Assembly: GCA_036172245.1 (NCBI GenBank)
Contig: JAYWIR010000056.1
Span: 186,001 to 250,000 of the forward strand
DNA from: Raillietiella orientalis
Lineage: Eukaryota
Direction: 5' to 3'
Length of the DNA: 64,000 bases
Made by a program: the position numbers and the translations under genes. This document shows positions 6,590 to 45,100 of this stretch, one piece after another (positions within the stretch are counted from its first letter, which is position 1; every line of letters begins with the position of its first letter). The notes beneath the pieces are model-generated. The model saw nothing but the letters and a program-made list of their open reading frames with translations, was not told the DNA's origin and searched no databases.

Positions 6590-6754
6590 ATGAGCCAGCA
6601 GCCGCCTTTGGCCGCCATGCTGTCCTTCGAGCCTGCAGGGCTCTTTGAGCAGCCCAAGACCCGGTTCGTCTTCAAGGTGCCCCGGGTCGTGCCGGACCAG
6701 AGGGCAAAGTTCGACTCGGACGAGCTCTTCAAGAAGCTGAGCAGGGAGAGCGAG
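6590..6754 (+). CDS. CBFB: CBF-beta coding exon 1
   Basis: ATG at 6590; 55 codons MSQQ...KLSRESE; donor GAG|GTAAGC at 6755. Confidence 0.93.
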
Positions 6755-20900: not shown

Positions 20901-23900
20901 GTCTGCAGCTGAGAAGGATCTCGCAATCCCCCAGCTGGTCTACGCTCCCGGTGACTGCGATGAATTCCACCGCCGTAGGCCGCATTTGTGAAGAGTGCAG
21001 TCAACGCGGTCGTCGTAGGCTGAGGTTACGACGGATGCTGGTGGTCAGCGGGTGGAAAGCTGGCAGCTGCAATCGCAACGAGTCTGCGGATCTGCCTGCC
21101 TCTTCCTTTTTGCATTTCTTTTAGTTCTTCGGTCCAGTTACTAGCAGTTAACGTGTCCGATGATTAATCTCTCTCGAGCTGAATCCTCAAGCCAAATCAC
21201 TTTCTTTGCGCGCTCGTCACAGAGCTTGTTGCGATCGGCCGAGGCTCGGGAATCACAGTTCCTCCGGGCACCATCGGGAACTGTGGAAACGAGCTGGAAG
21301 GTCCTTTGCGACCGCTCCTTACGTGTCCCCCTTCTCCTCCCCTTCGTGCGCTCGTCTTGAAGTCCGGCTCCACGAGCAGGGAACCTGCGCCGCTTTCAGG
21401 ATAGGACGTTCGCAAGAACCGAGCATGCGCAACGCGCCATTCGATGCTTCGCTTTTGATTTGCCGCCGCGCTTCGGCTGCCGCGGGTTTGCGTCCCCATT
21501 TCCTTCTTCCCGGGCACGATCCGCTGAGCGCCGCCGCTGCTGGTGCCGGAGTCGAATTCCCCGAGCGGGTGCTTCGTTTCTGCCGGAGGGCAGGACGGCT
21601 GCCGGGCAGCACGCGCCACCAGGCACCCTGAAGGAAATCCCCCATCCCTGCCATCCTGACGGCGCGGAGGGAGCCGCATTTGGCGAGTGCTAATGGTCCC
21701 GGCAGAGACGACGATTCGAAGATGAAAGCGTTTGGATTATCTTTGATTAATTTCTTCCTTTCAGATGATCCCGGCAGCGTCCGGACCGAGTGGATGATGA
21801 ACCCGCAAATAAAGACGTCACCGCTTGCTTGTTTGCTCTCTTCCTGGTCCCACTTAATGAAACGTTCCCTTTTTCCAGATGCACAAAGCGGCCTTCCCGG
21901 GCTGACGCTCGGATGCAGATTAAAATCCGAGCAGCAGATCCGGACCGTGCCGCATCACCTCTTCGTGCAGCTTCCGTGCCGCCTGAATCACTGATAGGGC
22001 TGAAAGGATTACCCGCCCATTGTTTTAAGCGCGAGGCATCTGCGCATCTCCCGCAGCCTCCGGAAGCCGTCGATAAGTTGCCGACTCTTTCGCAGCCCAT
22101 TTGCATGGGTGGGGAACAGGTGTCCCTGCCCCGCTGCCGGGATGCCCATTCCCGACTTTCATCTTGGATTACTTCGGCCGCGTTCAAAGGATGCTCTCCT
22201 TTCCCCGGAGGGGAAGGGCATGGGGAGAACCCCACGCAGGGGATCGTCTTCCTGGGAGTCGTTGCGGTCTTCCCAGGGGAAAGTGGACCCCAGAACCGCA
22301 ACGGCGAAAAGGGAAGAGGAGTCGCTCCTGAGAAGAGGCGCTTCCCGGTTCCCGGAGGCCGAAAGACCCGGTAAGTAGCAGAGCGCAGGGGGCCCTGAGA
22401 CCCTCCTCTGCTCCCCCAGGGGCGGATTCGCTCCCGCAGGCACGGCAACTGCGTACGCTGCTGACTCGCAGCGTCCTCGCGCCGCGGAGTGGTGTGAGGG
22501 CTGATCCGTCCGGAAAAGCCCCCACACGGCCCTTCTCCCGGCTTCGGGAGGGAGGGTCCCGCGGGAGTCGGTCTGCCTCTTTTGGGGAGGATGGGGAAGC
22601 GCATCATCCGAGCGGTCCTCCCTCGTCCCTTAGCGACGCTCACCGGCGTGGAGGCAGAGCGGGCACGGATGACGCGGCTCCCTCGTTTCCCTTTCCGGGG
22701 AGGAGAAGGAGAGGGAGCAAAGGTGGAGGGGGATCGTCTCTCGCTCCTCCCCTCTCTGGAAGCATTGCCATCACTGGAAACTCCGCTTCCTGCTCTGCGG
22801 GTGTCCGGGTCGTCCCCCAGTGGCGCTCGCGCCGAATCCGCTCCCTGGAGCCCCGATTGGACCTCGACGGCGTGGGGCTACTTCTCTCTCCCCTCCTGGA
22901 GGCGTCCAGGAGGCTCCTCACTGGGAGGAAGGGGAGGGGGAGGTCCTGCGCCTCTGTTGCAGACCGAGGGGGACCTCCCGGCGCTCTCGTTCGAGACGCG
23001 CCCCCACAGGGCGACGGAAAGCGAAAGGGAGAGCGCGAGGTTTTCACTCCCCTCCTCCTTCCCCGAGCTCCCTCGCCACTGCCGGCACTCACCTGGTACG
23101 GGGGGAATTCCCGGAAATCCCGGGACTCTCCCCTCTCTCCCCCCGCCGCCGGCGATGTGACCGTTGCCAACCGCATCATGTTCACCCCAAGGAAGCTCTA
23201 AGGGCCTCTCCCGACGGCGGCGGCTGCGACCTTCCCAACCCTTTTTGCCTTTTCGGGGCCTCCCTCTTTTTTTTCCTTTTTTTCCTCCTCCCCTCCTCTT
23301 CCTTTCCCATCATCCTTTTCCTCCGGGTGCGTCTCCCAGAGGAAGCATCTGCGAGGGCATTATTTACGCCGGGCTGAACCGGGACGGGGAGGAGGGGAAC
23401 GGGGCCGATCCTTCCCCGGGCATAGCGCTCTTCCTCCCGACCGAAGCAACAATGCGCTCCGAAACGGGAACGGCGGCCGGGACTCTCCGAGCGTTTCAAT
23501 CCCTTTTTTACTTCCATTTAGACTCTCCCTCGCCTGTTAAATTGGGTCTTTCCTCCCGGAAAAGGTGGGCATCCCCCATTGTAGCCCGCTCGGTCACGCC
23601 CGCGCTTAATGGCGCTGAACGAATCGCCGATACCGGGGATCGACAATGGACAAACCCTTTCGGTCCCACTCGAGGAGCGCTGGCATCCCTGCGTGGCCTC
23701 TCCCGCCTCCCCGAGAACGCTTCTCCCTCCGCCAGCGGCGAGGCAGGAGGCGGTTCGACCCTAGTCGGCCCAAAGCACCACCCACCCTAGGCGCGCTCGC
23801 TCGCACGAATCTCGAACTTCCTCTACCGTCGGCGCTGCTGACTGCGCCCTCCGCTGCACCGGGAGACAGGGGGTGCTGATCCTGCTCGAAAAGCTGTACC

Positions 23901-26900: not shown

Positions 26901-28884
26901 ACGCCGGCGGGCAGCCTGGTATCCTTCCTGGAACATGAAGAGTATCCTCCAGCAGTGGCGACGCGAGACGCAACTGACCACGATTGCCCCAATCCGAGTG
27001 AGCCAACAGGTGTTCGTCTCCAGGTGAGCCCCCGGTCACGTCACCGGCAGCGACGGGAGTGGAGAGAGAGTCCCGGGACTTTCGGGAATCCCCCCCACAC
27101 CAGGTGAGTGCCGGACGTGGCGAGGGACTTCCAGTGCCTCGGAACCTTTTTTTGCCTCTGTAGCCGAATGTCCTTTTACGATAGGATCTACCTGGAGTAC
27201 CCTCGGAACACTTCCGACTTCCGGGTGCGCATCTCCCGGGCGGCTGCGGGGACGTGGTGATCCTCCGTCTGCGGATGCAGTTGACCACCAGCGGGCTCCT
27301 CGTGTGTCACCTACGGAGGCATCCCGCGGCTAGAGAGCGGCTCCGGGAGGTGTCTCGTGCTGCTCCCGTTATCTCGCCGTCATAGCGGAAGTGGACGCTG
27401 ATCACATGCGGGCAGTATCGTTGCGTCACCAGCTAGGAGGTTTCCCTGACTTCTTCCAGGGAAAAGACCGGCGGGCCGTAGGGGAGGCGCACTTTAGCAT
27501 TCTCGTCTACTTCTCCGGCCCCTTTGCCGCCTCCTCTGCACATCCCCGATGAATAATTTGTATCATCCACGAAGCATTAAACGCGGACACGCTCACGAGC
27601 AGGCCATTCATCTTCGGCTGGCCTCGCACACGCATCCGTGAGATGCCCTGGATGTGCCCCGGGCACCGCGGTGTCCTCCTCCTCTCCCCTGCTCGAGTTG
27701 CTCCACCGGAAAAAAAAAAAAAAAAAAACGGATGTGGCCGCGCGCTCACCGTTGGCGGAGCTCTCGCCTGGGAACCCTTTCCTGGGATCATCGGTGCCTT
27801 CGAGCCGGATTCTCCGAGAGCGGCGCGCGGTTGGAGGTGAAAGAAGAGAGGACCAGTCGCCCGCGCCGCAACGCCTTCCGGCTCCCGGAGCGGACGGCGG
27901 GGCAGTCTTCGGCGGGGAAACTCTCGCGGACGGAGGCGTTTTCGGACCCTCGGTCGGCTCTTCGCCGCTCAGCCCCGTCGCGAGCCGAGGGACTCCTTCC
28001 CGAAACCGCAAACCTTTGGAACCGCTTCCTTTTCCTTTGCTATGGACACTTTGGGCCATTTCAGAGTTTTCTATTGGGGACGACGTCCATCCCCTACTTT
28101 CTTTTCAGTTGCAAGCCCTCCCAGCAGCCTGCAGCCAGCTGTCACCGCGTCCTCCGCACAAAAGCGAAGAGAAGAAAGGGGGTTCTCCTAGCATTTCCGT
28201 GTCTGCGTCGACTCGGCGTGGTGTTTTGGTTGTTCCTCCATTGCTTTTTCTCCACCCCAAGAATTTCCTTTCGCCTTCCATCACTCAGGGTGATTCCACA
28301 TTGATGGTACATGGAGATGAGACGCTGTTCTAAGTACGGCGTCAGCCGCTTCTCCCAAGTCACCAAGCAACAGTCCCCCATTACGGTTTAATGAGAAATG
28401 GGCTTTAGGTGAGTGTTCCATCTCTTGTTTCAGGGTCTCAGGGTTGAACGAGTTCCAGGGTTTCCAGGTTGAACTGAGAAATCCGTGCGAAAAGTACTCT
28501 CGTCATTCACTGTTTCTCCTCCTTATTCCTGTTTATTTTTGTGAATTACGCCTGCTCAAGATTGTCTACCATTATTTGGATCTTTCATTCGGTTCCTGTT
28601 TGGGGATCCTAGCAACATTTGTTCCTGTGTTGGTTGTGTTTTGATAGTGAGAACACGTCAGGAAAACGTTTCCCATTCCGGAACGTTCATCACCGATGCT
28701 TTGTCGCTACGTTCCTTTCGGTGAATTCCAGGCAGAAGTAGCCCGTGGTGTTTCGAAAGCCCCCATCATCTTTAAAGGATGATTTCACTGCGTCTTTCAC
28801 TTTTTGCCTGATCCTTTGGGGTGTGATGTGATGTCAGTGATGCTTTTGAGGCAGCTGCAGGCAAGAGAAGGAAGCAATCGAGAG

Positions 28885-29095
28885 GCGTTGGCGGCCGAGT
28901 GACTACGGTCTCCGAACGTCGCGGGTTCGAATCCCCACGCGGAGGATCGGCGCCGAGAAAGGGGGGGCTGCGTCGCGGGTTTCGATTTCGATTTCCACCC
29001 GCAGGATGGCGCTGATTGTCGGCCTCGGTTGGCTTCGGGTGTGGCACTGCTTGACACCCGGTCACGCCGGGACATTTATTTATAACAAATAAACA
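28885..29095 (+). mobile_element. tRNA-derived SINE
   Basis: A-box-like CGGCCGAGTGA at 28892-28902, canonical B box GGTTCGAATCC at 28924-28934, GC-rich body, AT-rich tail ATTTATTTATAACAAATAAAC. There is no complete cloverleaf. Confidence 0.72.
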
Positions 29096-30006
29096 GAGAC
29101 ACGTCTGTGGCAGGACGCTTGATCCTGCCACTTCACTTATAACTACGAGAAGGAACCTGCCGGGAGCTGGCACGCAGGCCAGCGGGGTTCGTTTCGGCAG
29201 CAGAGGGGAAGGGGAGACAAAGGAAAAACAGAAAACGAAAAATTCAGTCAAAGAATGAAGGCTTCGGCAAGGATCACTGTGTGCTCGAGGGTGTCCTCTG
29301 CATCCTTGTAAGGATGCCGGCAAGTTCCTGTTTCAAGACTCCCAGATGGGACCATCTTGACGCTGTCCACATGAAGAGGACAGCAGAATGGATGCCGTCC
29401 CTGGACTGCTCTGGCGTTGCTCCACGCAGCCAACGGTCCCGCCGCGTGGGCAGCAAAGTGATGCTGAGCATACGACCAACGTGATGGCGTCGCGCACGAA
29501 GAGGCGTTTTACAACGCCTTTGGCGTAGCGGCCGGAGGTTCCAAGGGCCGTGACCAGGCGTCCCCAAAGGGGCCCGAGGGAAACACGGTCCACTAGGAGA
29601 TGTGGGAGGGATTCCCGCTCTCCGCACCTTGCACAGTTTGGGTCCACGCACACCCCGTGTCTAATGATGCCGGCGGGCGTTGCACGGGAGACTCCGATGC
29701 GACAGCATCAATGCCTACAATAAAGGTGGGACAGCGGTGGAAGCCGGAAACCGGATGCTCCCGTTGACTGGTCGGGATTGGAAGTTGACCCTCCGGAGCT
29801 GTTCCGGGAATCAAGGAGCCCTTCGGGGTTCCCAGACCGGTTGTGTGTCCCTCTCCCCCTCCCCCCGTTAGGGTGGGGTGGAACTCTACAACGCCTGACA
29901 TAGAGGTGGAGTGTTACATCAGCGCGCTGCTCCCTTCGAGGATCGCCCTTCAGAGAAATTCGGAAGCGTCCTTCCGGGATCCTCTTCAGAGGAGGAGAGA
30001 ACAAGG
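28886..30006 (+). repeat. Left arm of a 1121-bp inverted repeat
   Basis: Reverse complement of 33707-34827. ORF-track peptides are identical in several frames and mirrored coordinates always sum to 63713, so there are no indels. Spot checks were identical. Confidence 0.97.
29075..29880 (-). mobile_element. Duplicated 3' end of the decayed L1/Tx1-like element
   Basis: Mirror copy carrying the CARCGERESLPH motif (ORF 29333-29653) and the 3' UTR. Confidence 0.6.
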
Positions 30007-30172
30007 AGGTTCCTTTGCGGGTTCCCTCCAGAGAAGAAATTCCAGGAGCGGATCCTTTTCCGGGTTCCCCTCAGAGAAGAAATGAGCAGCCCTCACAAAC
30101 CGGGGATTTCTCCAGAGAGCATAAGGAAGAGGTTCCTTTTGGAGACAAGTAGAGCGAGGGTTTCCTTCAGAA
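29925..30172 (+). repeat. Degenerate ~40-bp minisatellite
   Basis: About six diverged units with a core like CCTT..CGGGWTCC..TCAGAGAA, for example ccttccgggatcctcttcagagga, cctttgcgggttccctccagagaa, ccttttccgggttcccctcagagaa. Confidence 0.6.
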
Positions 30173-30836
30173 CTCTATTCCAGGAGCAAGAGAGGAACGG
30201 ATTGCTTCCCCCGGAGCCTTCCTGGATTCATAGGGTGGTTCCTCCGGAATTAGTCCCTATAACCTGAAGAGTTGCATGAACCTTCGGGAGGCGGGGTCAG
30301 TGTTAAAGAGCTTCGTGAGTCTCCAGCGGATGCGAACAGTTCTTTGAGTACTCAGAGGACCAACAAAAAAAAAAGGAATCCAAAAGGATTCTCACCATTC
30401 AAATACAACCCTTTGAGGAGCGACTGGTGGTATGGAGAATGAGGTTTGGTGCGCACTGAAAAGACAATCACCTACCATCACCTGACAGTTGATTTTTCCA
30501 TATGGGATGAGGTTTTCCTCTTCCCCAAGTTCCCGCTCGACTGCTCGCTGTCTCGATCTTCATTGGCCACCAAACCGGCGTCCGGTACCGGAGAGAAACC
30601 TCGAAACTTAAAAAGTAACAGCAGCAGAGTTTTGAAGTCTTGAAGACAAAGTCACCAGGGTCCTCTGCTGCATAGAAAAATAGAATCTAAATTTATCTTC
30701 GATGCCTTCATCTTTTTCTTCCAACTTTTTCTTCCTCTTCCTCTTCATCTATGATGCTGGCTTCGATTAGCCAAATTAGGGAAACCCTTTGATAGTATGC
30801 ACTTCTTGGAATGTTCAGAAGTCTCCACAGTCTAGA

Positions 30837-30987
30837 GCCACGTGGACAATGTACCACTTGTTTATTTACTTCTAATGGATTTGTTTACGCACTCACAGAT
30901 GCTCTCGGACCTTCACAAAATCTTTATAGACTTAATCTTTATCTCTTCATATAACCTTTGCAGATCAAAACAGACGTTGCAATTCAT
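30837..30987 (-). pseudogene. RING-HC (TRIM-like) zinc finger remnant
   Basis: MNCNVCFDLQRLYEEIKIKSIKIL*RSESICEC, then VNKQVVHCPRG in a shifted frame. This follows the CxxC..Y..L.C.H.C..C..CP layout with a stop and a frameshift. Confidence 0.4.
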
Positions 30988-32269
30988 TTAAATGTACATT
31001 TAAAATACATTTAAATAATACTCTTGCAATAGGAAGTAATAAAGAACTGAAACAGGACTACCCTTCTTGATACGAGCGAGCTTTTTGCGGTCGGATGGAT
31101 GGGCGGGCGACGCGATGCTGTATCTGCCTGGGAACCACTTACCCGTCCAGGATCCGCGATCAACGCTGCTCGTCAAGGATGGCGACGTAGCACCTTTGTT
31201 TCTTGTTCTGCGGGACCTTCCAGCAGCGACCGAGAAGTTTTGAATCACCCTGCCTCGGGTTTCATTCGGGAGGAGCGGGAGCTCCCTCCAGATGGCCCGG
31301 CAGCTCTCGAGGGGGAAGGTGCTCCCCACCATCAGTAGTGTGACCATGTCGGGTCCTCCAAGAGAAGAACGCAGAATCTTCTTCTTCGGCGGGTCTTCGA
31401 GTTTGCAGCGAGCCGTGCTGCTACCAGATGCATCCAGTTGGCAGTGCCCTCCTTACCTCCTTAGACATACCTCCAATGGAAATCAAAGAGGAAACCAACG
31501 AAGAACTGGCTGGGGAGATTGCATGTTCTGCACCGAGCACCCCTGCCGAAGGCTTCGGCACCCCGACCCACAAGGAAGAGCTCTCAGGGAGAATCATTTG
31601 CGACTCTGCGGTACTATGCTTCTTCCGTGTCCCTCCAGCAGCAGCAGCAGCGCGGATACAACCTCCGGCGACTCCTCGCTGAGACGGCGTCAGCTGTTGC
31701 CTCATCCTCAAGAACAGAATCCCCAACAGCCTCTCCACTATCCTGTCGCCCATAGACGTAGCTGCTGGGTCCCAGTTTCCTAACCTAGCCTAACCTAGGA
31801 ACAGGGACCAGCGTTTTCACGGAAGACCTGTCTTCTCGTTTCTCGTCCCGGAGTTGGATCTGCATCTCGGATCTCTCCCTGGGTGCTCTGCGCGCAGAGG
31901 TTGATTGCGAAAAGGATCCAATCAATAGCTTCCGACTCCGGGTCCGCGATGCCCCGCGCCATACCCTCACAGAAGAGCAGGGATAACCCAGTGAGCAAGT
32001 CGCTGAGCACCTGGTCGAATCGAAGTTCTGCAGATCTCTGAGGAGGGCGAGCGGGAAGCAACGATTGGGCGGCTCTCGCTGGAGCAGCACGTAGGCTCAC
32101 GCGTTTCCCTGCTCGGCCACGAGGCGTGTCCTGTCGAAGAGGCTACCAAGTTGGACTGCGGCGTGCATCCCGAGGATCACGTGTGGTCCTCTGACAAGCC
32201 GTTTCGCAAGAGGCGCTGGTTGGTGCACACCTGCTGGCGAGGTGTAGAACCCAGCACACGCGCGATGGC

Positions 32270-34638
32270 ACGTGGGGGAGGCCATCTTCTCGGATTCTGA
32301 ATCGCCATGTATGGGACTCTATCTTTGCCGCAGCAATGGCACCTGGTCAGACAAGTACCAGAAGAAACGGTGCGAGAAGAAGGTGCTCCTGGAGCCGAGA
32401 AACCAATACGGAGGGGAGGAGGGAAAGGTGACTCGACCCCACTATCTGGTTGGTGTTCCATGGCAACAGGGAACCATCGCACTCGATTCTGTCTTCTGCC
32501 CCTGAGAGCACTCGGTGGAGCTCAGCAAAAGGAGAGCGAGTCCCGGGGCTGCTCCTCCCCTTCCGCCTCGGCTGGGCACCTGTGAGCGCGCAGGTGCTCG
32601 CGGAAGGGGGGGTCCCGGGCGCCTAGAGGTAAAACGGAAGCGCCTGTGTACAGATGGGGGAATGCAAGTCGTCTGTATCGCCGGCCAGATGACCACGAAC
32701 GCACCGGGCATTCCTCGGATCGTACGACCGCACGATGGAGAAAGTCGAGAGTCCTGCCGCCCACATCGATGCTGCGAGCCTCTCTTCTCGCAGAATCCTT
32801 TGGCGCGTCTCCGAGGAGACGGAAGAGAAGCGGAACTGTCCTAGGAGGTTCGTGAGCGTGTCACCTGAAGCGAAAAAGGAGTCTCTACGTTGAACCTGGA
32901 TGAGCGGCTCCGCGGACGGATTCCTCCTGTGGTTCGTAGGTTTTCCAGGAGGATGCTGGGGGAGCGAGGGAAGGGACCCGAAAGCCAAAGCTGAGCCGCT
33001 CTGGATCCACTCCATTCGCCTTTCTCCTGCTCACACTTCTCGGGTTTCTCTCTTTTCCGACTCGCATAAACAGCGCTCGGATTTTCTGCTTCGACTGCGC
33101 CGTCGTGTGGAGTCCGCTGAAAAGGGTGGGTCAAGGGTTCCGTCTTCGTCCGGGAGGGAGTTCCCGGAGCCTTCTGCGCCTCCGAGCGGCCCTCCTTCTT
33201 CATGTACTCTCGCGCTCGCTTGCGAGATCTAGCGGTCCTCTTCGTGGTCGAGCGCGGCTGGGCATCCCCTGGCGTTCTGAACGAGAGGAATCGCCCACGC
33301 GCGTGATGCAAGGATGCTGAAGGAAGGCGCTCTGCTCCGCTTCCATTTCCCAGCTGAGGCGGGCTCCCGTCCCCATCTTTCTCTGCTCATTTCTGACCGC
33401 CTCTTCGACCTCAGCCCACATCGCAACTGAGAATGATGGAAATCTTTTGAGGTTCTGCTGCTTTCGCTGTTTTGCTTCCAGTTTTTCTTTTTTTTTGGTT
33501 CTCAAGGAGCGCTGAAGAAAGCCGTTCGTCTCCCTAGGAAGGGCTCAGTAAACTCATTAACACTGTCCACGCCACCCCAGGGTTCGTGTCCACTCTTCAA
33601 GTTAGGGGGTAACCCCGGAGGCACCAGCCTGCGAATCTGTTCATTCCTTTGTTCTTCTTACTCTCATCCCGGTTGTCTCTGAAGGGGAGCCTGCAAGAGA
33701 ACGGCACCTTGTTCTCTCCTCCTCTGAAGAGGATCCCGGAAGGACGCTTCCGAATTTCTCTGAAGGGCGATCCTCGAAGGGAGCAGCGCGCTGATGTAAC
33801 ACTCCACCTCTATGTCAGGCGTTGTAGAGTTCCACCCCACCCTAACGGGGGGAGGGGGAGAGGGACACACAACCGGTCTGGGAACCCCGAAGGGCTCCTT
33901 GATTCCCGGAACAGCTCCGGAGGGTCAACTTCCAATCCCGACCAGTCAACGGGAGCATCCGGTTTCCGGCTTCCACCGCTGTCCCACCTTTATTGTAGGC
34001 ATTGATGCTGTCGCATCGGAGTCTCCCGTGCAACGCCCGCCGGCATCATTAGACACGGGGTGTGCGTGGACCCAAACTGTGCAAGGTGCGGAGAGCGGGA
34101 ATCCCTCCCACATCTCCTAGTGGACCGTGTTTCCCTCGGGCCCCTTTGGGGACGCCTGGTCACGGCCCTTGGAACCTCCGGCCGCTACGCCAAAGGCGTT
34201 GTAAAACGCCTCTTCGTGCGCGACGCCATCACGTTGGTCGTATGCTCAGCATCACTTTGCTGCCCACGCGGCGGGACCGTTGGCTGCGTGGAGCAACGCC
34301 AGAGCAGTCCAGGGACGGCATCCATTCTGCTGTCCTCTTCATGTGGACAGCGTCAAGATGGTCCCATCTGGGAGTCTTGAAACAGGAACTTGCCGGCATC
34401 CTTACAAGGATGCAGAGGACACCCTCGAGCACACAGTGATCCTTGCCGAAGCCTTCATTCTTTGACTGAATTTTTCGTTTTCTGTTTTTCCTTTGTCTCC
34501 CCTTCCCCTCTGCTGCCGAAACGAACCCCGCTGGCCTGCGTGCCAGCTCCCGGCAGGTTCCTTCTCGTAGTTATAAGTGAAGTGGCAGGATCAAGCGTCC
34601 TGCCACAGACGTGTCTCTGTTTATTTGTTATAAATAAA
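32270..34638 (+). mobile_element. Decayed, internally deleted L1/Tx1-clade non-LTR retrotransposon
   Basis: ORF1-like VTRPHYLVGVPW...LDSVFCP (32272-32505) with possible degenerate zinc-knuckle residues at ~32645-32780. A possible endonuclease start FVSTLQVRG lies at ~33583-33610. The ORF2 C-terminal zinc motif SHRSLPCNARRHH / CARCGERESLPHLLVD is at ~34010-34125, with AATAAA at 34633. Many stops and frameshifts; no RT core seen. Confidence 0.55.
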
Positions 34639-34827
34639 TGTCCCGGCGTGACCGGGTGTCAAGCAGTGCCACACCCGAAGCCAACCGAGGCCGACAATCA
34701 GCGCCATCCTGCGGGTGGAAATCGAAATCGAAACCCGCGACGCAGCCCCCCCTTTCTCGGCGCCGATCCTCCGCGTGGGGATTCGAACCCGCGACGTTCG
34801 GAGACCGTAGTCACTCGGCCGCCAACG
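33707..34827 (-). repeat. Right arm of the 1121-bp inverted repeat
   Basis: Reverse complement of 28886-30006. Confidence 0.97.
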
Positions 34828-34828
34828 G
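34618..34828 (-). mobile_element. tRNA-derived SINE (mirror copy)
   Basis: Same sequence as 28886-29095; B box at 34779-34789 on the minus strand. Confidence 0.72.
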
Positions 34829-37051
34829 CGACGGAAAAGTCGTCCGAGAGAAGTGGCATTTTCTTTCATCCGCGTCACAAAAAAGCCACTTCCTTGCAAC
34901 TCAAATGAGAAGCTGGCTCTGGAGAGCTAAAAGAGTTCTCTAAGTTTCCATGGACCGTTAGGGAATGCAGGGTTCGGTCAGCTGGTTCCGCGCGCCCCTA
35001 CGGAACAAAGAGGCTCGAATGGACCGTCAAAGCGCGCCAGCTTCCCGCAGAACATGCCTCTTGCCCAATGATTTCCATGATCCAGGAATACGTGGACCAT
35101 GGAAGGCATTGGTTCTTTTCCTCCTTCTTTGATACAGACTGCGTTCAACCTCTGGCTGTCGAGACTTCTTGGGGTGCACATGAGGATCGCCTCATGCCCC
35201 GAGCCTGGGTCTCGGCATGCAGACTGCGAATGCAGTTCTCGGACATAGGAATCGATGCGGTGGGGCTTGTGGGTGGAAGCGAAGACGGGGGAGGGGGGAC
35301 CAACTAGCTTTAGGCGGAGGTTACTTCAGTCTCTTCTACCTGAGCGGGGTCGTCTCCCGTGTCTCCTGCTCGATTGCAGCTCCTGAGATGACAAAAACGC
35401 GTTTCCTCACGTCTGGATGCGCTGCAGATACTCATCGCTTTGCGTGCTCCCCCAGGGTTTGCTGAAGAAGATGGGAAGATATCTCTGAGGATGCGGACAC
35501 GCACCGTTCTGCTTCCCGGAAGCACCTGCAGCGATTTTCCAGAGATGTTTCTGATTTGCTTGGAGGTCCATCTTTTTTGTTCCCTGGTCCACCTCACTGG
35601 TTTCTGGTCTTCGCTCCCTTTCCGCAGCTTCGAGTTTATTCTCTTCAAAACTTCGCCGCTTTTTGCAGACATGGGGAAAAAAGCATCCATTAGTTGCAGT
35701 CTTTTTCTGGGTTCGAAGCAGAGCTCGTCACACCAGCAGCTTTCGCATTTTTTTTTCTTTTCTTTTTTCTAAAAAATGAAAAAAAAAAAAAAAAAAAAAG
35801 ATGTCGACTTTTTCTCAGGCACGATGGACGCAGCTTCATCGCTCGCCTATCGCGACTGACATCCGAACTTTCCAGTTTTCTTTGGGTAACAGCGTTTTAG
35901 GAATCATCCCGGAGTGAAAACTGTTGAAAGGATTCATGGATTTTTTTTTCTTAAAAAAAAAACCGTTCGAAGAGATACTGTGGATCATTTCCAACACTTT
36001 CATTTGCTTTTGTTCCGGAGCGTTCGCTTCTTCCCTATGCTGACGCGTGGGGAGAATTCACGTTCCAGGTTGCTTCCAAAGAACCCCAGTGAGCGCATCA
36101 ACGCCGTCGCAGAATTTCCTTCAGCACGTGGTCCCTGAATTCAAGTGTGCGAAACAGACGCAAGTGGCATCCGAACCCATCTTCGATCTTCCTTTCCTTT
36201 CCTTTCCTTCCTCTGACTGAGACTGATTAAGAGCTAATAACGAATGGCCGCGAAGATGGACTTTGATAAGCGTGTGCCTCCTCCTACGTAAAAACACACA
36301 CACAAAAAAAATCTTCCTGCAGAGCCCTGGTTGATATGGGCGGCAGCCTTCCTTCACCTGCTTCCTATTGAGCAATGGTCAGCGGTTTTGCAAGAGGTGC
36401 ATTCTGGAGTCAAAGATCACTTCCCCAGCATGGCAAACCCATTGCTTCCAGTGATGGCTTTTCACTGCAGCAGTGCCTACCACGAAGAACGATTACCTGA
36501 ACACATAACTCTTTCAACGATCACCCTCCATTCAAATTTGCTCCCACTTGGCTTCCTCTCGAACGTTTCACCTTACTGTAAGCAAACCTCGCTGTGCTGC
36601 CCTAAGGAGAAGTTTGCTCTTTTCACTCGCGACCTGTCAACTTCTCCCAAGCGTAAGCGTCCGTACGCGCGCGCGCCTCCATCCTGCAGGCTTGGCAGAC
36701 GTCGGAAAAACGCTGTCGAAAGTTGGACTCAGCTGCAAGGCGAATTCACATCGCACGCAGGGAGAAGAGTCGTTTGCGAATATCTTCTCTCCCCGTGCAC
36801 CCCCTCGCTGCTGCTGCTGCTGCTGCTGCTGTGGAAACCACTGCCATCTTGCGACGAGCGTTCAAACCTTCGCTTTCCAAACGAACGAGGAAGGAAGGAA
36901 AGGAAAACAGAGAAGTCCGAAGTGGTAAACTTCGGGCCGAGCCTTCCAGCGAACGACCCTCGGTGACATCAGCGAAACTGCGATTGAATTTTCCGAGCAC
37001 GATGTTTCCCGCTTTGGGAGCAGAGAACGAGCAATAAATGGTGAGCAATTA

Positions 37052-40200: not shown

Positions 40201-42137
40201 AGCTCTGTGCGTGAAGGCTAGCTGATGAACGGGATCCATCCCTTCCCAGTCTTCCTTGCTCTTTCGAGCCTCGGAAGCAGATTTTTGCTTGGAATTCTGC
40301 TCTTTCCTCTCGTGTCATGCAAGCTTCAGGCCGTGCTTAACATAGTGTAACCCTTTTCAAAAATATGGAAGCGTAAATTCCATAAAGTTCTTCAGTCTTT
40401 TGTCCTTATAGGAGATCTCGCTCTCTGTGCTCCCTGAAGGGATAAGCGACATGAAATGTAATATGTAAATAGCCGCATCGGAAAGCAGCCGCTCAGAAAG
40501 ATGAAGATTTTCAGCATGTCCTGTTCTAGACAGTATCTGAGATACTTTCATGGTCCATACACAACAGCTTTCGGGAGCTCATAAGAGCAGTGAATACTAC
40601 TCCCGTGAAGACCTACTTACGAGAGCAGTTTCTACATCCTTGAGCTTTGCCTAGGGATAACCCCAATGAAACGTCTAAAAAGAGGCTCTAAAAACAGCCT
40701 TAAAAAGCACCTAAGCAGCCAAAAAAGATTTTATCTGTTACTGCAGGCGGATGAGGATGCGAGTAAGAGACCGTCCATTGCATCAATTGTAGCAGTAATA
40801 TGGTCAAGGAGTTGTTTTTTAAATCTTTTGCCTGCTGAGCTGTTACAGAACGGAATGCTTCAATAGGAGCACGAAAGTGTTGTAACGTACCAGGACTCTT
40901 TTCGAGAAAACACTCGAATCTGTAATTCTTTCCGAGATTCTCCCTCCAGCTGAGATAAAGCTCCAGATACCGACTCTTCTTTGTGGGAGGACCATCAAAG
41001 AAACGGTGAACCAGTGTGGTATGGCTCTGTTCGAAAACGCTCATTTTGAAGTACAATGTTGGGACTAACGTAACAAAAAGTTTCCCGGGGTTTAGAAAAT
41101 GACACCTTCCCCTTCTTGAAATTTAGTCCAAAGTAGTCTCCAAAGATGCTGAAGACTTCGAAATACTGAAAGAATTAAAAAAAAAAAAAAAAAAACCCTC
41201 TAAAAAGAGGCCATCATGTAAAAAAAGAAAAAAAGGCTTTTGCCTACAGAAATGTAAAAATATGCATCGATTCACGATCATTGAGTGCATTCAGCTGCGC
41301 TCCGATTGCTTTTCTGATCACTTTCAGCTTCACCATCACCTCTTTGCTCTGCACAAATTGCTTGAGGGACTTATTTATGTCGAGAGACCTTCAGAAACAT
41401 TACGTGGTTCTCAGCACATTACATCCTTTTGAGTTTTTCGGGGAGGGGAGGTCAGGGAATGGATCACTGTTCTCCTGGATTGGTCCTCTGCATCCTCTTC
41501 AGGATGCTCACAAGTGCTGCTCTGGTATTATTCCGGTGGAGCCACCATGTCGCGGTCTCCAAAAAGATCGTCGTCCAGTGGATGGCGTCTCCGCTCCGTC
41601 TTTTTTGGCCTCTTCTTTCATATAAAACATATTCCTCCCTCTTTTAATTCTTTTTGTTTATTTTGGTTTGGCTTTTCCCTTCCCCTTCGCCGCTGGGGAG
41701 AACCTCACCGGTCGTAGAACCGGTTTATGGTTATTTTGTCACTCCCCAGCGTGGTAGGACCAAGTGTTCTACCACGAAAAACATAATTTTGACTTCATTG
41801 TAAAATTTGAGTAAAAAATTTTTATAATAAATGCCATGGAGTATCCGGGTGATAAACATCCTTTTGAGTCATCTGCTTATCTTGTTATCATGAAGAAAGC
41901 TTAGTAAAGATTACTTTGGAAAAAGCATTTCCGTTCAAAAAGCGTTTCTTCTTTCATGAATTGTTTTTCGAAAGAATGAAAGGAAAAAAAAAAAAAGTGG
42001 AGGACGAATATGAACCAATGCTCGAAGTGTTTTCGAAAAATCAATGCAAGCATTAATGCTCAATACCAAATCAATAAAATAATTCAAACGCTTCACGCAT
42101 TCACTTCAGTGAGACGAAAAGACACTCTTTCCATCAG

Positions 42138-45100
42138 ATTGATTTCTCTTTGAATTACTATACACATCTTGGAAGCCATTTTTGTCACTCCGTTGGCACT
42201 ACATTCATCAGGGAATTGGTAAGCGTTATCCGACGTATCCAAAAATGGAACTGCTTTACATTAAGCTGACGTAAAAATCACCAACTTTGAAAAACTGTGG
42301 TCTATATATTCATTTTCTTCTGTGATGTCATAAGCATTCATCTTATGAAAACGGTTTCCCAGGATGTAAAACTAGCTGTACGCAAAATACAATTTACTTG
42401 AGATTATAGGATTGGTACTATATGTTCGTGAGACAAAAAACAGAGAAAACAAACCGATCCTAAAACCAACACGCATGTATTTTAAAGTCAAAGTTGATTA
42501 TTTCATACTTCAGCTAATTACAACATATTTATCGTTGTGGATTTCGAAATGCTTATTACAACCAAACTTTGTATATGTTCCCTTTGTAGTATAGTCCAAT
42601 ACAGGAAATCATGGAGAACAGGGAAAAAAATATTTGTTGCCAAATGCTTTTGCACGTTTTCAGATTGATGCACTCTTATGGAATCCTCTTAATCATTTCA
42701 TCTACCTACCTCACCAAACTAGTGGTAGAAGACGATGTGTTTTGCTGCTTAGTGTTTAAAAACACTCGCAGTCTTTGTACAGAATTGAGGGGTGTTTATT
42801 TAGCTTCAACGTTTTATGAGTGTTAATGAATGCTTTGAGGAATATAAAGCCGAAAGAATTTTCGAATTTTATATGGACTCATGAGCGTTGTATTAAATCT
42901 ACAAAAATTGTCGAAAGCTTCACGTGATTGTGAGAAAAAATCCCATTTCTTAATTTACCAATATGGAATACACTGGGTTTGGGACTTCTACAGCATTACT
43001 TGTACGTTGTATTTGGTTTGTATTTGCACGTTTCTCTGAAACAGATGAGGCAGAAGGCATCCCTAATTTATAGTCAGCTCCTGTAAGTATTAGCAGGTTT
43101 GAAAAGTCCTTTCCCCCATGAGTTACTGCTGTGACAGCTCGTCCTACCCGGACAATATGACTTTTACGTACGAAATAGAAGGCACATTCTATAACCCGAT
43201 GTCAATTTTCCACAACTCAATCCTGTTTGTGCAGTTCCACCTAACTGCTACAGAAGAGTGAAAGCAAACCCATACAGGTGGCATCATCCCCCAGCTGTGT
43301 TTCTGTGAAAGCGGGATAATTTACAATAAAAAAAAAAAAAAAAGTCTAAAAACACTTCCCATCTGAGTTTGTACTTGGCAATGTTAATATCAGTGTGGTG
43401 GGCCATAAACGCAACAAAGGATACAAAGTAAATGGTTAATCGATTGACTGGTGGTATATCAGTGGAGCAATGTAATTCTCGTTTTGAGTTCCATGGACTA
43501 CATGCTTGTTAAGTAGGCAGTTTGTTTGTCTTTTTTTTAACCAATTTGAAATGAAAAGAAAATACTTAACTTTCAGAAATATGTTATATAACAAAGCAAC
43601 TTACAATTTCTCAATGAAAGTTACAACATTAATTGCATTGGTATCATAGTAACTGTAATGACAAAATTCTGAAAACTTTAGAGAGTAATGTAAGTTTAAA
43701 CAACACTTGCCCTAATCAAATGAATACCTTACTTATAACGACCGATAATGATTCATTGCAATGTACTTAAGTATATTTAAGAGATCGATATTAGTTGTAA
43801 CAGAAAAGACTCCTACGATATGCAATCGTGGGGGTATTTTCTGCAGTTTTGCAAGCAAAACATAAAGCGTTCGTTTGTAAAAAAAGAAAAAAAAAAAAAA
43901 TTGCATCCTTAGATCATGTTTGAAACCCACTTAAAACTGACAAGCTAATTCTGAGAAATCCTGGTACTTTGCAATTTGCTGTATGTTTCGAAGGCAGTTT
44001 TTTTCCGGATCTTGCTTAGCAGTATGATTCCACATAGAAGCAATGTAACTATAGTGATCATACAAAGTATGGTTTCTGTGTTATATTGTAACATCGGTTG
44101 TGACCAAGAATAACTAAAAAAAAAAAAAATGAAAAAAAACAAAAATATTAAGTGATGTAAACCACCTGCATGAGTCTTTTGCTGTACAACTTCCAGCAGA
44201 ACTATTGCATCTATCTGAAATTTCCAGCAACTGATCACAATATATTCCTGTATAAGGCAAATCACACATGCAAGTAGAGTTTGCATTACAACTACCATGC
44301 ACACATAGCATGGAGCAGTCTCTCAAGATGTGTGTATCAGTATTTATACTGATCTGGGGAGTATGGTTTGGTTCATGTGATTCTGCTGTTGGGACATCAC
44401 AAGATAGAGAGGGAACAGCTAATCCATTTGAACTCCACTTCTTAAGATTGAATATTTGTCGCAGCTTCCATCTTCCTGCTATCACCACAGCTAGCCATAC
44501 TTCTGCATGATCCACGTCAATCCAGAACAAACTTTGCCTGCCTGCATCTAGATTGGCTACAAACTGTTTTTCAGCTTCTATCAGAAGATGCACTTCATTG
44601 TTGCTGTATGTTTTGATTCTGCAAGAGCCTGTAGATTCTTTAAGCAAGCAACTCATTTACCTAAACTGGGTTCTAAATGGATGCTCAGCCCAAAACATCC
44701 CCAAAGGATTGATAGCTAGGGCAGTGATCAGATACTGATTTGTGTACATAGTAATTTGCTTTTGTTCATCATTGAGAGTAATGCAGACAATATTTACGGA
44801 ACTCTCTATCCAACATAACTTTCTATACAAAAATTCCAATCAAATTCTTGTTTATTCAAAATTCAACTTTATGAAATTAAGTTATTAAAGTTACCTGCTG
44901 CAAGAATCCAGGGACAAGGAATGAATTGATTGCTGATGCCTTTTCAGTAGATGGGTAATGCACATGGATGGGAATTTTTTTGACTGTTTACTTGAACACT
45001 GGCAATAAAACATGTTTGTTCCATTGATATCAATCCAGTATATTGTATTTGTAAAATAGTCAAGTTTCATCTCTTTGATTGAAGGAGTTTTTTCTGCAAA

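What the first reader, a model, noticed from the sequence alone, without database searches (positions are those of the whole stretch)
28886..34827. Apparently perfect 1121-bp inverted repeat with inward-facing SINE heads around a 3.7-kb spacer
Seen: the two arms show no indels, their outer ends coincide with the 5' ends of tRNA-derived SINEs, and both carry the same stops and frameshifts in the decayed LINE piece. I see no target-site duplication (flanks ...GAGAGG / GCGACG...). Inference: copying happened after the LINE decayed. Options are a recent inverted duplication, gene conversion between arms, a composite SINE-LINE unit, or an assembly artefact. If real, it could invert the spacer, fold into a ~1.1-kb dsRNA stem, and give convergent Pol III transcripts antisense to the LINE, a possible small-RNA source.
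Basis: partly seen in the sequence, partly recalled or inferred. Interest (0 to 1): 0.7.

Follow-up and report, generated by a model that had tools for sequence, protein, structure and literature searches.

The report
Perfect inverted repeat from old repeat pair
Two facing copies of an old non-coding repeat have had most of their length made letter-identical, probably by one copy being used to repair the other, which is a known and fairly ordinary process.

Summary
The 1121-bp inverted repeat (28886-30006 / 33707-34827, 3700-bp spacer) is exactly as described: 100% complementary, no N in the window.

New here: the homology does not stop at the inner arm ends. It runs on into the spacer at about 72% identity with indels (30225-30374 vs 33637-33484, E 5e-13). 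The outer flanks share nothing. So this is an old inverted pair of about 1.4-1.5 kb units whose outer 1121 bp were homogenised recently, a two-age pattern. The inner edge lies inside a degenerate ~40-nt tandem motif, about 28 nt before a large indel, so it is not an element end.

Best reading (about 0.5): arm-to-arm gene conversion between two old convergent repeat copies. Rivals are one-step homology-primed copying, over-polishing in assembly, or a long-TIR element.

The SINE head is supported only by motifs (exact box B, box-A-like). ARAGORN and Rfam found no tRNA. The LINE piece was not confirmed.

No reads, genome or RNA data could be reached.

The scan has noted similar near-perfect inverted repeats elsewhere in this genome, none checked with reads.

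The parts
28886..30006 (+). Left arm of the perfect inverted repeat (1121 nt); head-proximal part of the left old repeat unit
   Evidence: 100% reverse-complementary to 33707-34827
33707..34827 (-). Right arm of the perfect inverted repeat (1121 nt); head-proximal part of the right old repeat unit
30007..30405 (+). Left diverged continuation of the homology (old part). It holds about 150 nt of extra degenerate tandem motif, a core at 30225-30374 that is about 72% identical to the right copy, and an A10 run at 30365.
   Evidence: 71.8% over 156 columns, E 4.8e-13; nhmmer E 3e-14; alignment; score 66 vs shuffles 12.4+-1.6, 0 of 200; A run. The end near 30405 is read by eye.
33430..33706 (-). Right diverged continuation of the homology (old part); core 33484-33637; A9 run at 33496 on the minus strand
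   Evidence: The end near 33430 is read by eye.
30406..33429 (.). Unique core of the spacer, with no internal inverted homology and no Pfam domain
   Evidence: spacer halves 30382-31881 vs 31973-33472 score at chance, 28 of 100 shuffles as good; 0 Pfam matches for the spacer ORFs of at least 90 aa
28886..28954 (+). tRNA-like head of the left unit: box-A-like GGCCGAGTG at 28893 and exact box B GGTTCGAATCC at 28924. Its mirror is 34759-34827 on the minus strand.
   Evidence: motif scan; box B is unique in the window; sequence. Negative: (no tRNA by ARAGORN or Rfam).
28970..29012 (+). Partial second copy of the T-arm-like segment of the head, with a TTTCGA x2.7 microrepeat
   Evidence: read directly; TRF 28980-28995
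29930..30110 (+). Degenerate ~40-nt tandem motif (TCAGAGAA-type cores at 29950, 29986, 30027, 30071) that straddles the inner arm edge at 30006/30007
   Evidence: last 82 nt of the arm vs next 234 nt score 34 vs shuffles 14.8+-2.2 (0 of 300); vs the right inner flank 25 (1 of 300). TRF did not call it at score >=30.
29507..29510 (+). TTTT run 621 nt from the head (mirror at 34203-34206 on the minus strand); a likely stop for any Pol III transcript from the head
   Evidence: the Pol III termination rule is recalled knowledge
34006..34380 (+). 124-aa open frame in the arm (mirror 29333-29707 on the minus strand) holding the C-x2-C-x7-H spacing that the LINE reading rests on
   Evidence: translation. 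No homologue found.
41456..41589 (+). The only other relative of the arm in the window, an old fragment 65% identical to arm positions 381-514 (29266-29399)
   Evidence: blastn E 1e-7; nhmmer E 3.2e-7; similar peptide ending at an aligned stop on the opposite strand

Best explanation
Two old copies of one non-coding repeat, about 1.4-1.5 kb each, lie tail to tail with their tRNA-like heads outward. The left copy runs from 28886 to about 30405 on the plus strand. The right copy runs from 34827 to about 33430 on the minus strand. They had diverged to about 72% identity.

Homology-guided repair between the two copies (arm-to-arm gene conversion, in one or repeated rounds) then overwrote one copy with the other. 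The overwritten tract covers the whole stretch bounded by strong heterology. On the outside that is the end of the homology at the head's 5' end. On the inside it is a large indel in a degenerate tandem motif. This left 1121 bp identical.

Shown: the perfect arms, the diverged continuation, the lack of outer homology, and the edge lying inside a tandem motif. Inferred: the mechanism, its direction and its timing.

No function is shown. As a by-product the locus can invert its spacer by recombination between the arms. If one transcript crosses both arms, it can form a 1.1-kb RNA stem.
For: (1) The arms are 100% identical over 1121 nt.

(2) Homology continues inward in the same order and orientation. 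30225-30374 matches 33637-33484 at 71.8% over 156 columns (E 4.8e-13; nhmmer E 3e-14). Local alignment of the 450-nt inner flanks scores 66 against 12.4+-1.6 for shuffles, with 0 of 200 as good. BLAST also extends the arm alignment 28-31 nt past the perfect part, to 30034/33676, at about 70% identity.

(3) The step in age is large. The Jukes-Cantor distance of the old part is 0.354, against a 95% upper bound of 0.0027 for the arms, a ratio of about 130.

(4) The outer flanks share nothing, so the perfect tract runs to the end of the homology.

(5) The inner edge is not an element end. A degenerate ~40-nt motif runs across it in both copies, and the first large indel, about 150 nt extra on the left, starts about 28 nt further in.

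(6) The arms are richer in G+C (0.591) than the old inner parts (0.50, 0.51), the flanks (0.51) and the spacer core (0.55). This points in the direction expected from GC-biased conversion, as reported for primate palindromes (PMC3723533, PMC8981503; search listing and abstract starts only).

(7) The arm is not a young high-copy element in what could be seen. The window holds no other copy above 65% identity. No look-alike stood in the scan's index of this genome.

(8) There is precedent. kb-scale, 100%-identical inverted repeats kept by conversion are described in Caenorhabditis (PMC1803023; passages read).
Against: - Recombination between sequences only about 72% alike is normally suppressed (recalled knowledge). 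The converted part must therefore have been more alike than the surviving old part, or conversion must have begun early and been repeated.
- A single conversion tract is not expected to reach the last base of the homology. That the identity ends exactly at the head's 5' end fits repeated events or a heteroduplex blocked only by non-homology, and neither is shown.
- The G+C difference may simply reflect different sequence content.
- No reads, population data or orthologous locus could be examined, so perfect identity in the living genome is unverified.
- Earlier notes of the scan report many other near-identical inverted duplications in this assembly, none confirmed with reads. This could reflect biology or a property of the assembly.
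Confidence: 0.5

Rival explanations
1. One-step, homology-primed copying. Only a short old inverted repeat, the present inner 280-400 nt, existed; one copy may have been a 5'-truncated repeat copy. A break beside one copy was repaired by invading the other copy and synthesising outward for 1121 nt, and the end was then joined without homology. This is the break-driven inverted-repeat expansion or template-switch type of event.
For: The two-age pattern has the young part outside the old part. The outer edge is sharp, with no microhomology and no flank similarity. Replication-based template switching that creates or perfects inverted repeats is documented, though for short events (PMC5453318; abstract read).
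Against: Synthesis would have had to stop at the very first base of the tRNA-like head by chance. That is roughly 10 positions in 1121, or about 1%, if the head's 5' end is placed correctly from motifs. Template-switch events in the paper read are tens of bases long, not 1.1 kb (abstract).
Confidence: 0.17
2. Assembly or polishing effect. Both arms exist and are similar, but the consensus was homogenised by reads mapped to the wrong arm, so '100%' overstates the real identity. The edges would then fall where the two copies stop being alignable.
For: The perfect tract ends exactly where alignability ends on both sides, which is also what mis-mapping would give. No read data could be obtained and no genome is held. 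Other agents' notes list many near-perfect inverted repeats in this assembly, none read-checked.
Against: Mis-mapping needs arms that are already very similar. A young or homogenised pair beside about 72% old homology would still need the same biological explanation. A fold-back chimera is excluded because the right flank is unrelated to the reverse complement of the left flank. There are no gaps (N) in the window.
Confidence: 0.15
3. The whole 5942-bp unit is, or was, one mobile DNA element with long terminal inverted repeats of the foldback type, whose arms homogenise within the element.
For: It has long inverted termini with a degenerate tandem motif towards their inner ends, recalling Drosophila foldback elements (recalled). 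The outer ends are sharp.
Against: There is no target-site duplication. None of the spacer ORFs of at least 90 aa had a transposase or any other Pfam domain. No second copy stands in the window or in the scan's index. The termini carry a Pol III-type box B, which is typical of retroposons rather than DNA transposons.
Confidence: 0.08
4. Two very recent independent insertions of one discrete 1121-bp composite retroelement (SINE head plus antisense LINE 3' piece) landed at the same site of two old repeat copies. This would follow the site-specific LINE-in-SINE pattern that other agents noted in this genome.
For: The outer arm ends coincide with the start of the tRNA-like head. Earlier notes e1-7513218, e1-7511859, e1-7511300 and e1-7513543 describe LINEs sitting antisense in tRNA-headed repeats of this genome (unchecked leads).
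Against: The inner arm edge lies inside a tandem motif that continues beyond it in both copies. No old target sequence is found outside the outer ends. No LINE homology could be shown. A TTTT run 621 nt from the head would stop a Pol III transcript of the unit. No other young copy was seen.
Confidence: 0.05

Closest known systems
Long, nearly perfect inverted repeats of Caenorhabditis (hsp-16 locus, F44E5.4/F44E5.5), kept alike by conversion (Zhao et al. 2007, PMC1803023; passages read)
   Same: They are invertebrate, autosomal, kb-scale arms with short unique spacers. Arm identity reaches 100% although the structure is old, and arm-to-arm gene conversion is proposed.
   Different: Those arms carry genes and their age is shown by orthologous loci in three species. 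Here the arms are non-coding repeat DNA, and the age is inferred only from the diverged continuation of the same homology.
Conversion-maintained palindromes of primate Y and X chromosomes (PMC3723533, PMC8981503, PMC8600007; search listing and abstract starts only)
   Same: They have inverted arms around a unique spacer, arm identity above 99.9% through arm-to-arm conversion, GC-biased conversion and rare spacer inversion.
   Different: Their arms are tens of kb to Mb long (recalled), gene-bearing and on sex chromosomes, with conversion shown by population and cross-species data. Here the arms are 1.1 kb and no such data exist.
Break-driven expansion of an inverted repeat into neighbouring single-copy DNA
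   Same: A young perfect part is added next to an older shared part, and the new outer edge is sharp.
   Different: That model comes from plastid genomes. Here the young part lies outside the old part and ends at the start of a tRNA-like head, which that model leaves to chance.
Drosophila hairpin-RNA (hpRNA) loci that give endo-siRNAs (PMC10317233, PMC10292708; search listing and abstract starts only)
   Same: A long inverted repeat could fold into a long RNA hairpin if transcribed as one RNA.
   Different: hpRNA arms derive from identifiable target genes, and the loci are defined by transcription and 21-nt small RNAs. Here no target gene, transcript or small RNA is known.
Inverted pairs of SINEs (e.g. 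inverted Alu pairs) as sources of intramolecular dsRNA and circular RNA (recalled; also the comparison used in earlier notes e1-7592608 and e1-7590123)
   Same: Two retroposon-like repeats in opposite orientation lie a few kb apart.
   Different: Inverted Alu pairs are independent insertions that differ by several to many per cent (recalled). Here 1121 nt are identical and no surrounding gene or exon was found.

Membership tests
Conversion-homogenised inverted repeat (palindrome with spacer) | Two arms in inverted orientation separated by a unique spacer | tested here: met
   the spacer core has no internal inverted homology
Conversion-homogenised inverted repeat (palindrome with spacer) | Arm-to-arm identity far above that expected from the age of the structure | tested here: met
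   Identity is 100% over 1121 nt, against about 72% in the directly adjoining, collinear homology. Age is judged from that internal comparison, not from orthologues.
Conversion-homogenised inverted repeat (palindrome with spacer) | Direct evidence of conversion (orthologous loci, polymorphism, paralogous variants) | not testable with these tools
   No genome is held and no sequencing run was listed
Conversion-homogenised inverted repeat (palindrome with spacer) | GC enrichment of the arms through biased conversion | tested here: inconclusive
   G+C is 0.591 in the arms against 0.50-0.55 in neighbouring segments. This is a single locus and composition could differ for other reasons.
tRNA-derived SINE | Internal Pol III promoter: box A and box B at tRNA-like spacing | tested here: met
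   Box B is exact and unique in the window, and a box-A-like motif lies 31 nt upstream. The consensus motifs are recalled, and box A matches only the loose pattern.
tRNA-derived SINE | Recognisable similarity of the head to a tRNA (cloverleaf or covariance model) | tested here: not met
   ARAGORN found 0 genes. Rfam gave no tRNA match at gathering score or at E<=10. The MFE fold is no better than shuffles (z 0.61).
tRNA-derived SINE | Many dispersed copies with target-site duplications and an A-rich or LINE-like tail | tested here: inconclusive
   The window holds no further copy of the head and there is no TSD. A-runs lie near the inner ends, but homology seems to run on past them. Genome-wide copy number could not be tested.
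LINE (non-LTR retrotransposon) fragment | Detectable homology to ORF2 (endonuclease, reverse transcriptase or C-terminal zinc knuckle) | tested here: not met
   Pfam matched 0 of 5 arm ORFs at E<=1 and none of the arm ORFs at E<=0.01. Exhaustive HMMER gave 1 spurious hit. Word-indexed searches gave none. Only a C-x2-C-x7-H spacing seen by eye remains.
DNA transposon with long terminal inverted repeats / foldback element | Target-site duplication flanking the termini | tested here: not met
DNA transposon with long terminal inverted repeats / foldback element | Transposase gene inside, or multiple copies with the same termini | tested here: not met
   No Pfam domain was found in the spacer ORFs of at least 90 aa and there is no second copy in the window. 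Genome-wide copies could not be tested.
Fold-back inverted duplication or chimeric-read artefact | Sequence beyond the second arm is the reverse complement of the sequence before the first arm | tested here: not met
   Outer flanks of 100-1000 nt align at chance level
hpRNA / endo-siRNA locus | One transcript across both arms and 21-nt small RNAs from the stem | not testable with these tools
   No RNA holder was listed

The most novel reading that the evidence does not exclude
This arthropod-like genome may have an unusually active process that perfects nearby inverted repeats. One candidate is correction of heteroduplex formed when the two arms pair within one strand, spreading until blocked by non-homology. 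This locus would be a clean small example, with identity filling exactly the interval between two heterology barriers. The resulting perfect stems could then serve as hairpin-RNA sources of small RNAs against the repeat family they derive from.
Probability: 0.1. Interest if true: 0.6.

Novelty: new member of a known kind. Interest (0 to 1): 0.3.

Why it matters
By itself it matters little, because conversion-homogenised inverted repeats are well known.

The locus is useful as a compact, well-bounded case. A perfect tract meets its own diverged continuation, so the limits of homogenisation can be read to the base: the end of homology on one side, an indel in a tandem motif on the other.

Together with the many other near-identical inverted duplications that the scan noted in this genome, it raises a question worth one read-level check. 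Either this species makes or maintains local inverted repeats unusually often, or the assembly does.

If the repeat is real, it is a likely site of spacer inversion polymorphism. If it is transcribed as one RNA, it is a candidate long-dsRNA source.

Tried and rejected
- Whole genome: none is held for this window, so no genome-wide copy count was possible.
- Sequencing runs: none was listed for 28386-35327, and no RNA holder was listed. Read laying was therefore never used.
- Metagenome scan for the head pattern: 0 matches.
- The scan's own index by sequence: no look-alike for the arm, the head or the 124-aa ORF. Nothing was noted near this place.
- Rfam at E<=10 over 28700-30500 gave only two chance-level matches, SNORA42 (E 1.1) and ceN115 (E 1.8).
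- Pfam on 12 long ORFs of the window: none.
- Pfam on 134 ORFs of at least 90 aa from 29.7 to 63.4 kb: none above the curated cut-offs. Three ORFs had sub-threshold matches to four families: ORF28, LNT_N, and JAG1-like_EGF2 with EGF_DL_JAG.
- Protein atlas: four requests did not complete because the machine was busy.
- Third homologous-protein search, structure prediction and complex prediction: not used, since no credible protein was at stake.
- A polyA-tail reading of the A-runs at 30365 and 33496 was considered. It is left open because weak similarity seems to run on about 30-40 nt past them (by eye).
- A 9-bp or other TSD was looked for by eye and by alignment and not found.
- The staggered-break inversion model (inverted duplications at inversion breakpoints; recalled, cf. 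PMC7584159, listing only) was considered. It does not explain why the novel junction would be in register with old homology.

Full report
**Observation**

Arms 28886-30006 and 33707-34827 are 1121 nt long, 100% reverse-complementary and ungapped, with 3700 nt between them. The window holds no N. Apart from a weak 95-nt, 83% inverted pair at 23069-23163 / 27033-27127, this is the only repeat of at least 60 nt in the 64-kb window. An exact 1121-nt match cannot be chance.

**Edges**

Outside the arms there is no similarity.
- The first 10/20/30 nt beyond the outer edges share 3/4/6 ungapped matches.
- Local alignments of 100, 400 and 1000 nt of outer flank score at the level of shuffles: 133, 95 and 82 of 200 shuffles do as well.

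So there is no target-site duplication. The right flank is also not the reverse complement of the left flank, which rules out a simple fold-back duplication or a fold-back chimeric read as the source.

The homology does not end at the inner edges.
- A sensitive self-comparison of 26-38 kb finds a second, collinear inverted match: 30225-30374 against 33637-33484, 71.8% identical over 156 columns (E 4.8e-13; E 1.9e-18 with other scoring and nhmmer E 3e-14).
- BLAST also carries the arm alignment 28-31 nt past the perfect part, to 30034/33676, at about 70% identity.
- The 450-nt inner flanks align with score 66 against 12.4+-1.6 for shuffles, with 0 of 200 as good. Deeper parts of the spacer do not align, with 28 of 100 shuffles as good.
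- In the global alignment the left copy carries about 150 nt more than the right between the perfect part and the 72% block. By eye, weak similarity runs on to about 30405 and 33430, past A-runs at 30365 and 33496.

The ancestral homology is therefore about 1.5 kb on the left and about 1.4 kb on the right, and only its outer 1121 nt are identical.

**Two ages**

The old block has a Jukes-Cantor distance of 0.354. Zero differences in 1121 nt put a 95% upper bound of 0.0027 on the divergence of the arms. The ratio is about 130. Whatever made the arms identical happened long after the two copies came to lie here.

**The inner edge is not an element end**

Cores of the TCAGAGAA type recur at 29950, 29986, 30027 and 30071, spaced 36-44 nt apart. 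They run across the edge at 30006/30007.
- The last 82 nt of the arm resemble the next 234 nt on the left: score 34 against 14.8+-2.2, with 0 of 300 shuffles as good.
- They resemble the right inner flank less strongly: score 25, with 1 of 300 as good.
- Tandem Repeats Finder did not call this array at score >=30, so it is degenerate.

The perfect tract thus stops inside a continuous, homologous, copy-number-variable motif, about 28 nt before the first large indel.

**What the arms are made of**

The outer ends carry a Pol III-type head.
- The box B consensus GGTTCGAANCC (recalled) occurs once per strand in the whole window, at 28924(+) and 34789(-).
- A box-A-like GGCCGAGTG lies 31 nt upstream, and the arm begins 7 nt before it.
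- A partial second copy of the T-arm-like segment lies at 28970-29012.

Nothing beyond motifs supports a tRNA origin. ARAGORN finds no tRNA in the window. Rfam finds none at gathering score and none at E<=10 in 28700-30500. The head folds no better than shuffles (z 0.61).

The 'decayed LINE piece' could not be confirmed.
- 0 of 5 arm ORFs match Pfam at E<=1, and the arm ORFs again give nothing.
- An exhaustive HMMER search with the 124-aa ORF that holds the C-x2-C-x7-H spacing returned one protein. That protein is an 839-aa internally repeated sequence matched in 13 stretches at about 30% identity, with inflated Pfam scores. I take it as spurious.
- Word-indexed searches with a second arm ORF and with its one relative found nothing at E<=0.01.

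The only relative of the arm in the window is 41456-41589, 65% identical to arm positions 381-514. Read on the opposite strand, both end in a similar peptide followed by an aligned stop. This is a faint hint of a shared ORF end and no more.

Earlier notes of the scan describe LINEs lodged antisense in tRNA-headed repeats of about 0.8 kb elsewhere in this genome. The index held no look-alike of this arm, head or ORF.

**Surroundings**

No protein domain was found in the spacer or within 9 kb on either side.
- One search scanned 134 ORFs of at least 90 aa from 29.7 to 63.4 kb. None exceeded a curated cut-off. Three ORFs gave sub-threshold matches to four families, one of them a Jagged/Delta-type EGF match at 44117-44656(-).
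- One search scanned the first 150 of 173 ORFs of at least 100 aa that start before 29.7 kb. Four of the 150 match CBF-beta, marking a gene on the plus strand at about 6.7-8.4 kb.
- The remaining 23 ORFs, between about 25.6 and 29.7 kb, were not scanned in that call. Those inside the left arm have the same sequence as the right-arm ORFs scanned.

The locus looks intergenic or deep intronic in an animal genome. Other agents call the genome arthropod, which I did not check.

**Mechanism**

My best reading has a confidence of about 0.5. Two old copies of one repeat lay tail to tail. Homology-guided repair between them, that is gene conversion in one or more rounds, overwrote one with the other.

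The two edges are where strand exchange must stop. One is the end of homology at the head. The other is a large indel in the tandem motif. Once most of the tract was identical, later events could spread freely up to these barriers. That would explain why identity reaches the very first base of the head.

The arms' higher G+C (0.591 against 0.50-0.55 around them) points the way GC-biased conversion would, but a single locus proves nothing.

Precedents:
- kb-scale inverted repeats of Caenorhabditis with up to 100% arm identity and proven old age (PMC1803023; passages read).
- The primate sex-chromosome palindromes (PMC3723533, PMC8981503, PMC8600007; listing and abstract starts only).

Points against this reading:
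- Recombination between 72%-identical DNA is normally suppressed (recalled). The converted part must therefore have been more alike than the surviving part, or conversion must have started early.
- A single tract ending on the last base of homology would be a coincidence.

**Rivals**

- One-step homology-primed copying outward from a short old inverted repeat, by break-induced or template-switch synthesis (0.17). It fits the two ages and the blunt outer junction, but leaves the stop at the head's first base to chance, about 1%. The template-switch events in the paper I read are short (PMC5453318; abstract).
- Over-polishing in the assembly (0.15). The edges coincide with the limits of alignability, no reads could be obtained, and other near-perfect inverted duplications are noted in this assembly without read support. 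It still needs very similar arms beside 72% homology, so the biology would be the same with a lower identity.
- A long-TIR or foldback-type DNA element (0.08). There is no TSD, no transposase and no second copy seen.
- Two fresh insertions of a discrete 1121-nt composite retroelement (0.05). This is contradicted by the inner edge lying inside a continuous motif, by the lack of old target sequence outside the heads, and by a TTTT run 621 nt from the head.

**Function**

None is shown.
- Recombination between 1.1-kb identical inverted arms can invert the 3.7-kb spacer. This is established behaviour of such repeats (recalled).
Transcripts started at the two heads have the same sequence, because the arms are mirror copies read from opposite strands, so they cannot pair with each other. 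Pol III would probably stop at the TTTT 621 nt in (termination rule recalled). A 1.1-kb stem needs one Pol II-type transcript that crosses both arms.
- Drosophila hpRNA loci are the model for that (PMC10317233, PMC10292708; listing only). Here no transcript, small RNA or target gene is known, and no RNA run was listed.

**Verdict**

The structure is best seen as a new, small, non-coding example of a known kind: a conversion-homogenised inverted repeat built on an old inverted pair of repeat copies. Its merit is the clean two-age boundary. Its weakness is that reality at 100% identity and any function remain untested.

The scan has recorded similar near-perfect inverted repeats on other pieces of this genome, but not this locus.

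Noticed in passing
window 6680-8362 (+): Four ORF pieces match successive parts of the Pfam CBF_beta profile (positions 2-27, 26-55, 55-94, 89-133), so a core-binding-factor beta gene with short introns lies here in 62-68% G+C DNA.
   Followed up: partly
window 44117-44656 (-): There is a sub-threshold match to Jagged/Delta-type EGF domains (E 2.6e-4, below the curated cut-off) in the AT-rich part of the window. It may be an exon of a Notch-ligand-like gene.
   Followed up: no
window 23069-23163 and 27033-27127: A second inverted pair, 95 nt and 83% complementary, has a spacer of 3869 nt, close in size to the 3700-nt spacer of the main repeat. No link between the two was found.
   Followed up: no
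window 1-64000: There is a strong compositional shift: 54-68% G+C from 1 to about 36 kb, falling to 35% at 42-46 kb, then 40-49%. CpG observed/expected is near 0.9 around the repeat, which suggests little CpG depletion.
   Followed up: no
window 41423-41614 (+): This is an old fragment related to the middle of the arm (65% identity). On the opposite strand both end in a similar peptide with an aligned stop codon, a possible remnant of the 3' end of a mobile-element ORF that could not be identified.
   Followed up: partly
window 34580-34604 (+), mirror in the left arm at 29109-29133: A perfect 9-bp stem with a 7-nt loop (GTGGCAGGA...TCCTGCCAC) is followed by an AATAAA-containing A/T-rich stretch. 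It lies about 200 nt inside the head and looks like the 3' end of a retroelement transcript on that strand. This was read by eye only.
   Followed up: no
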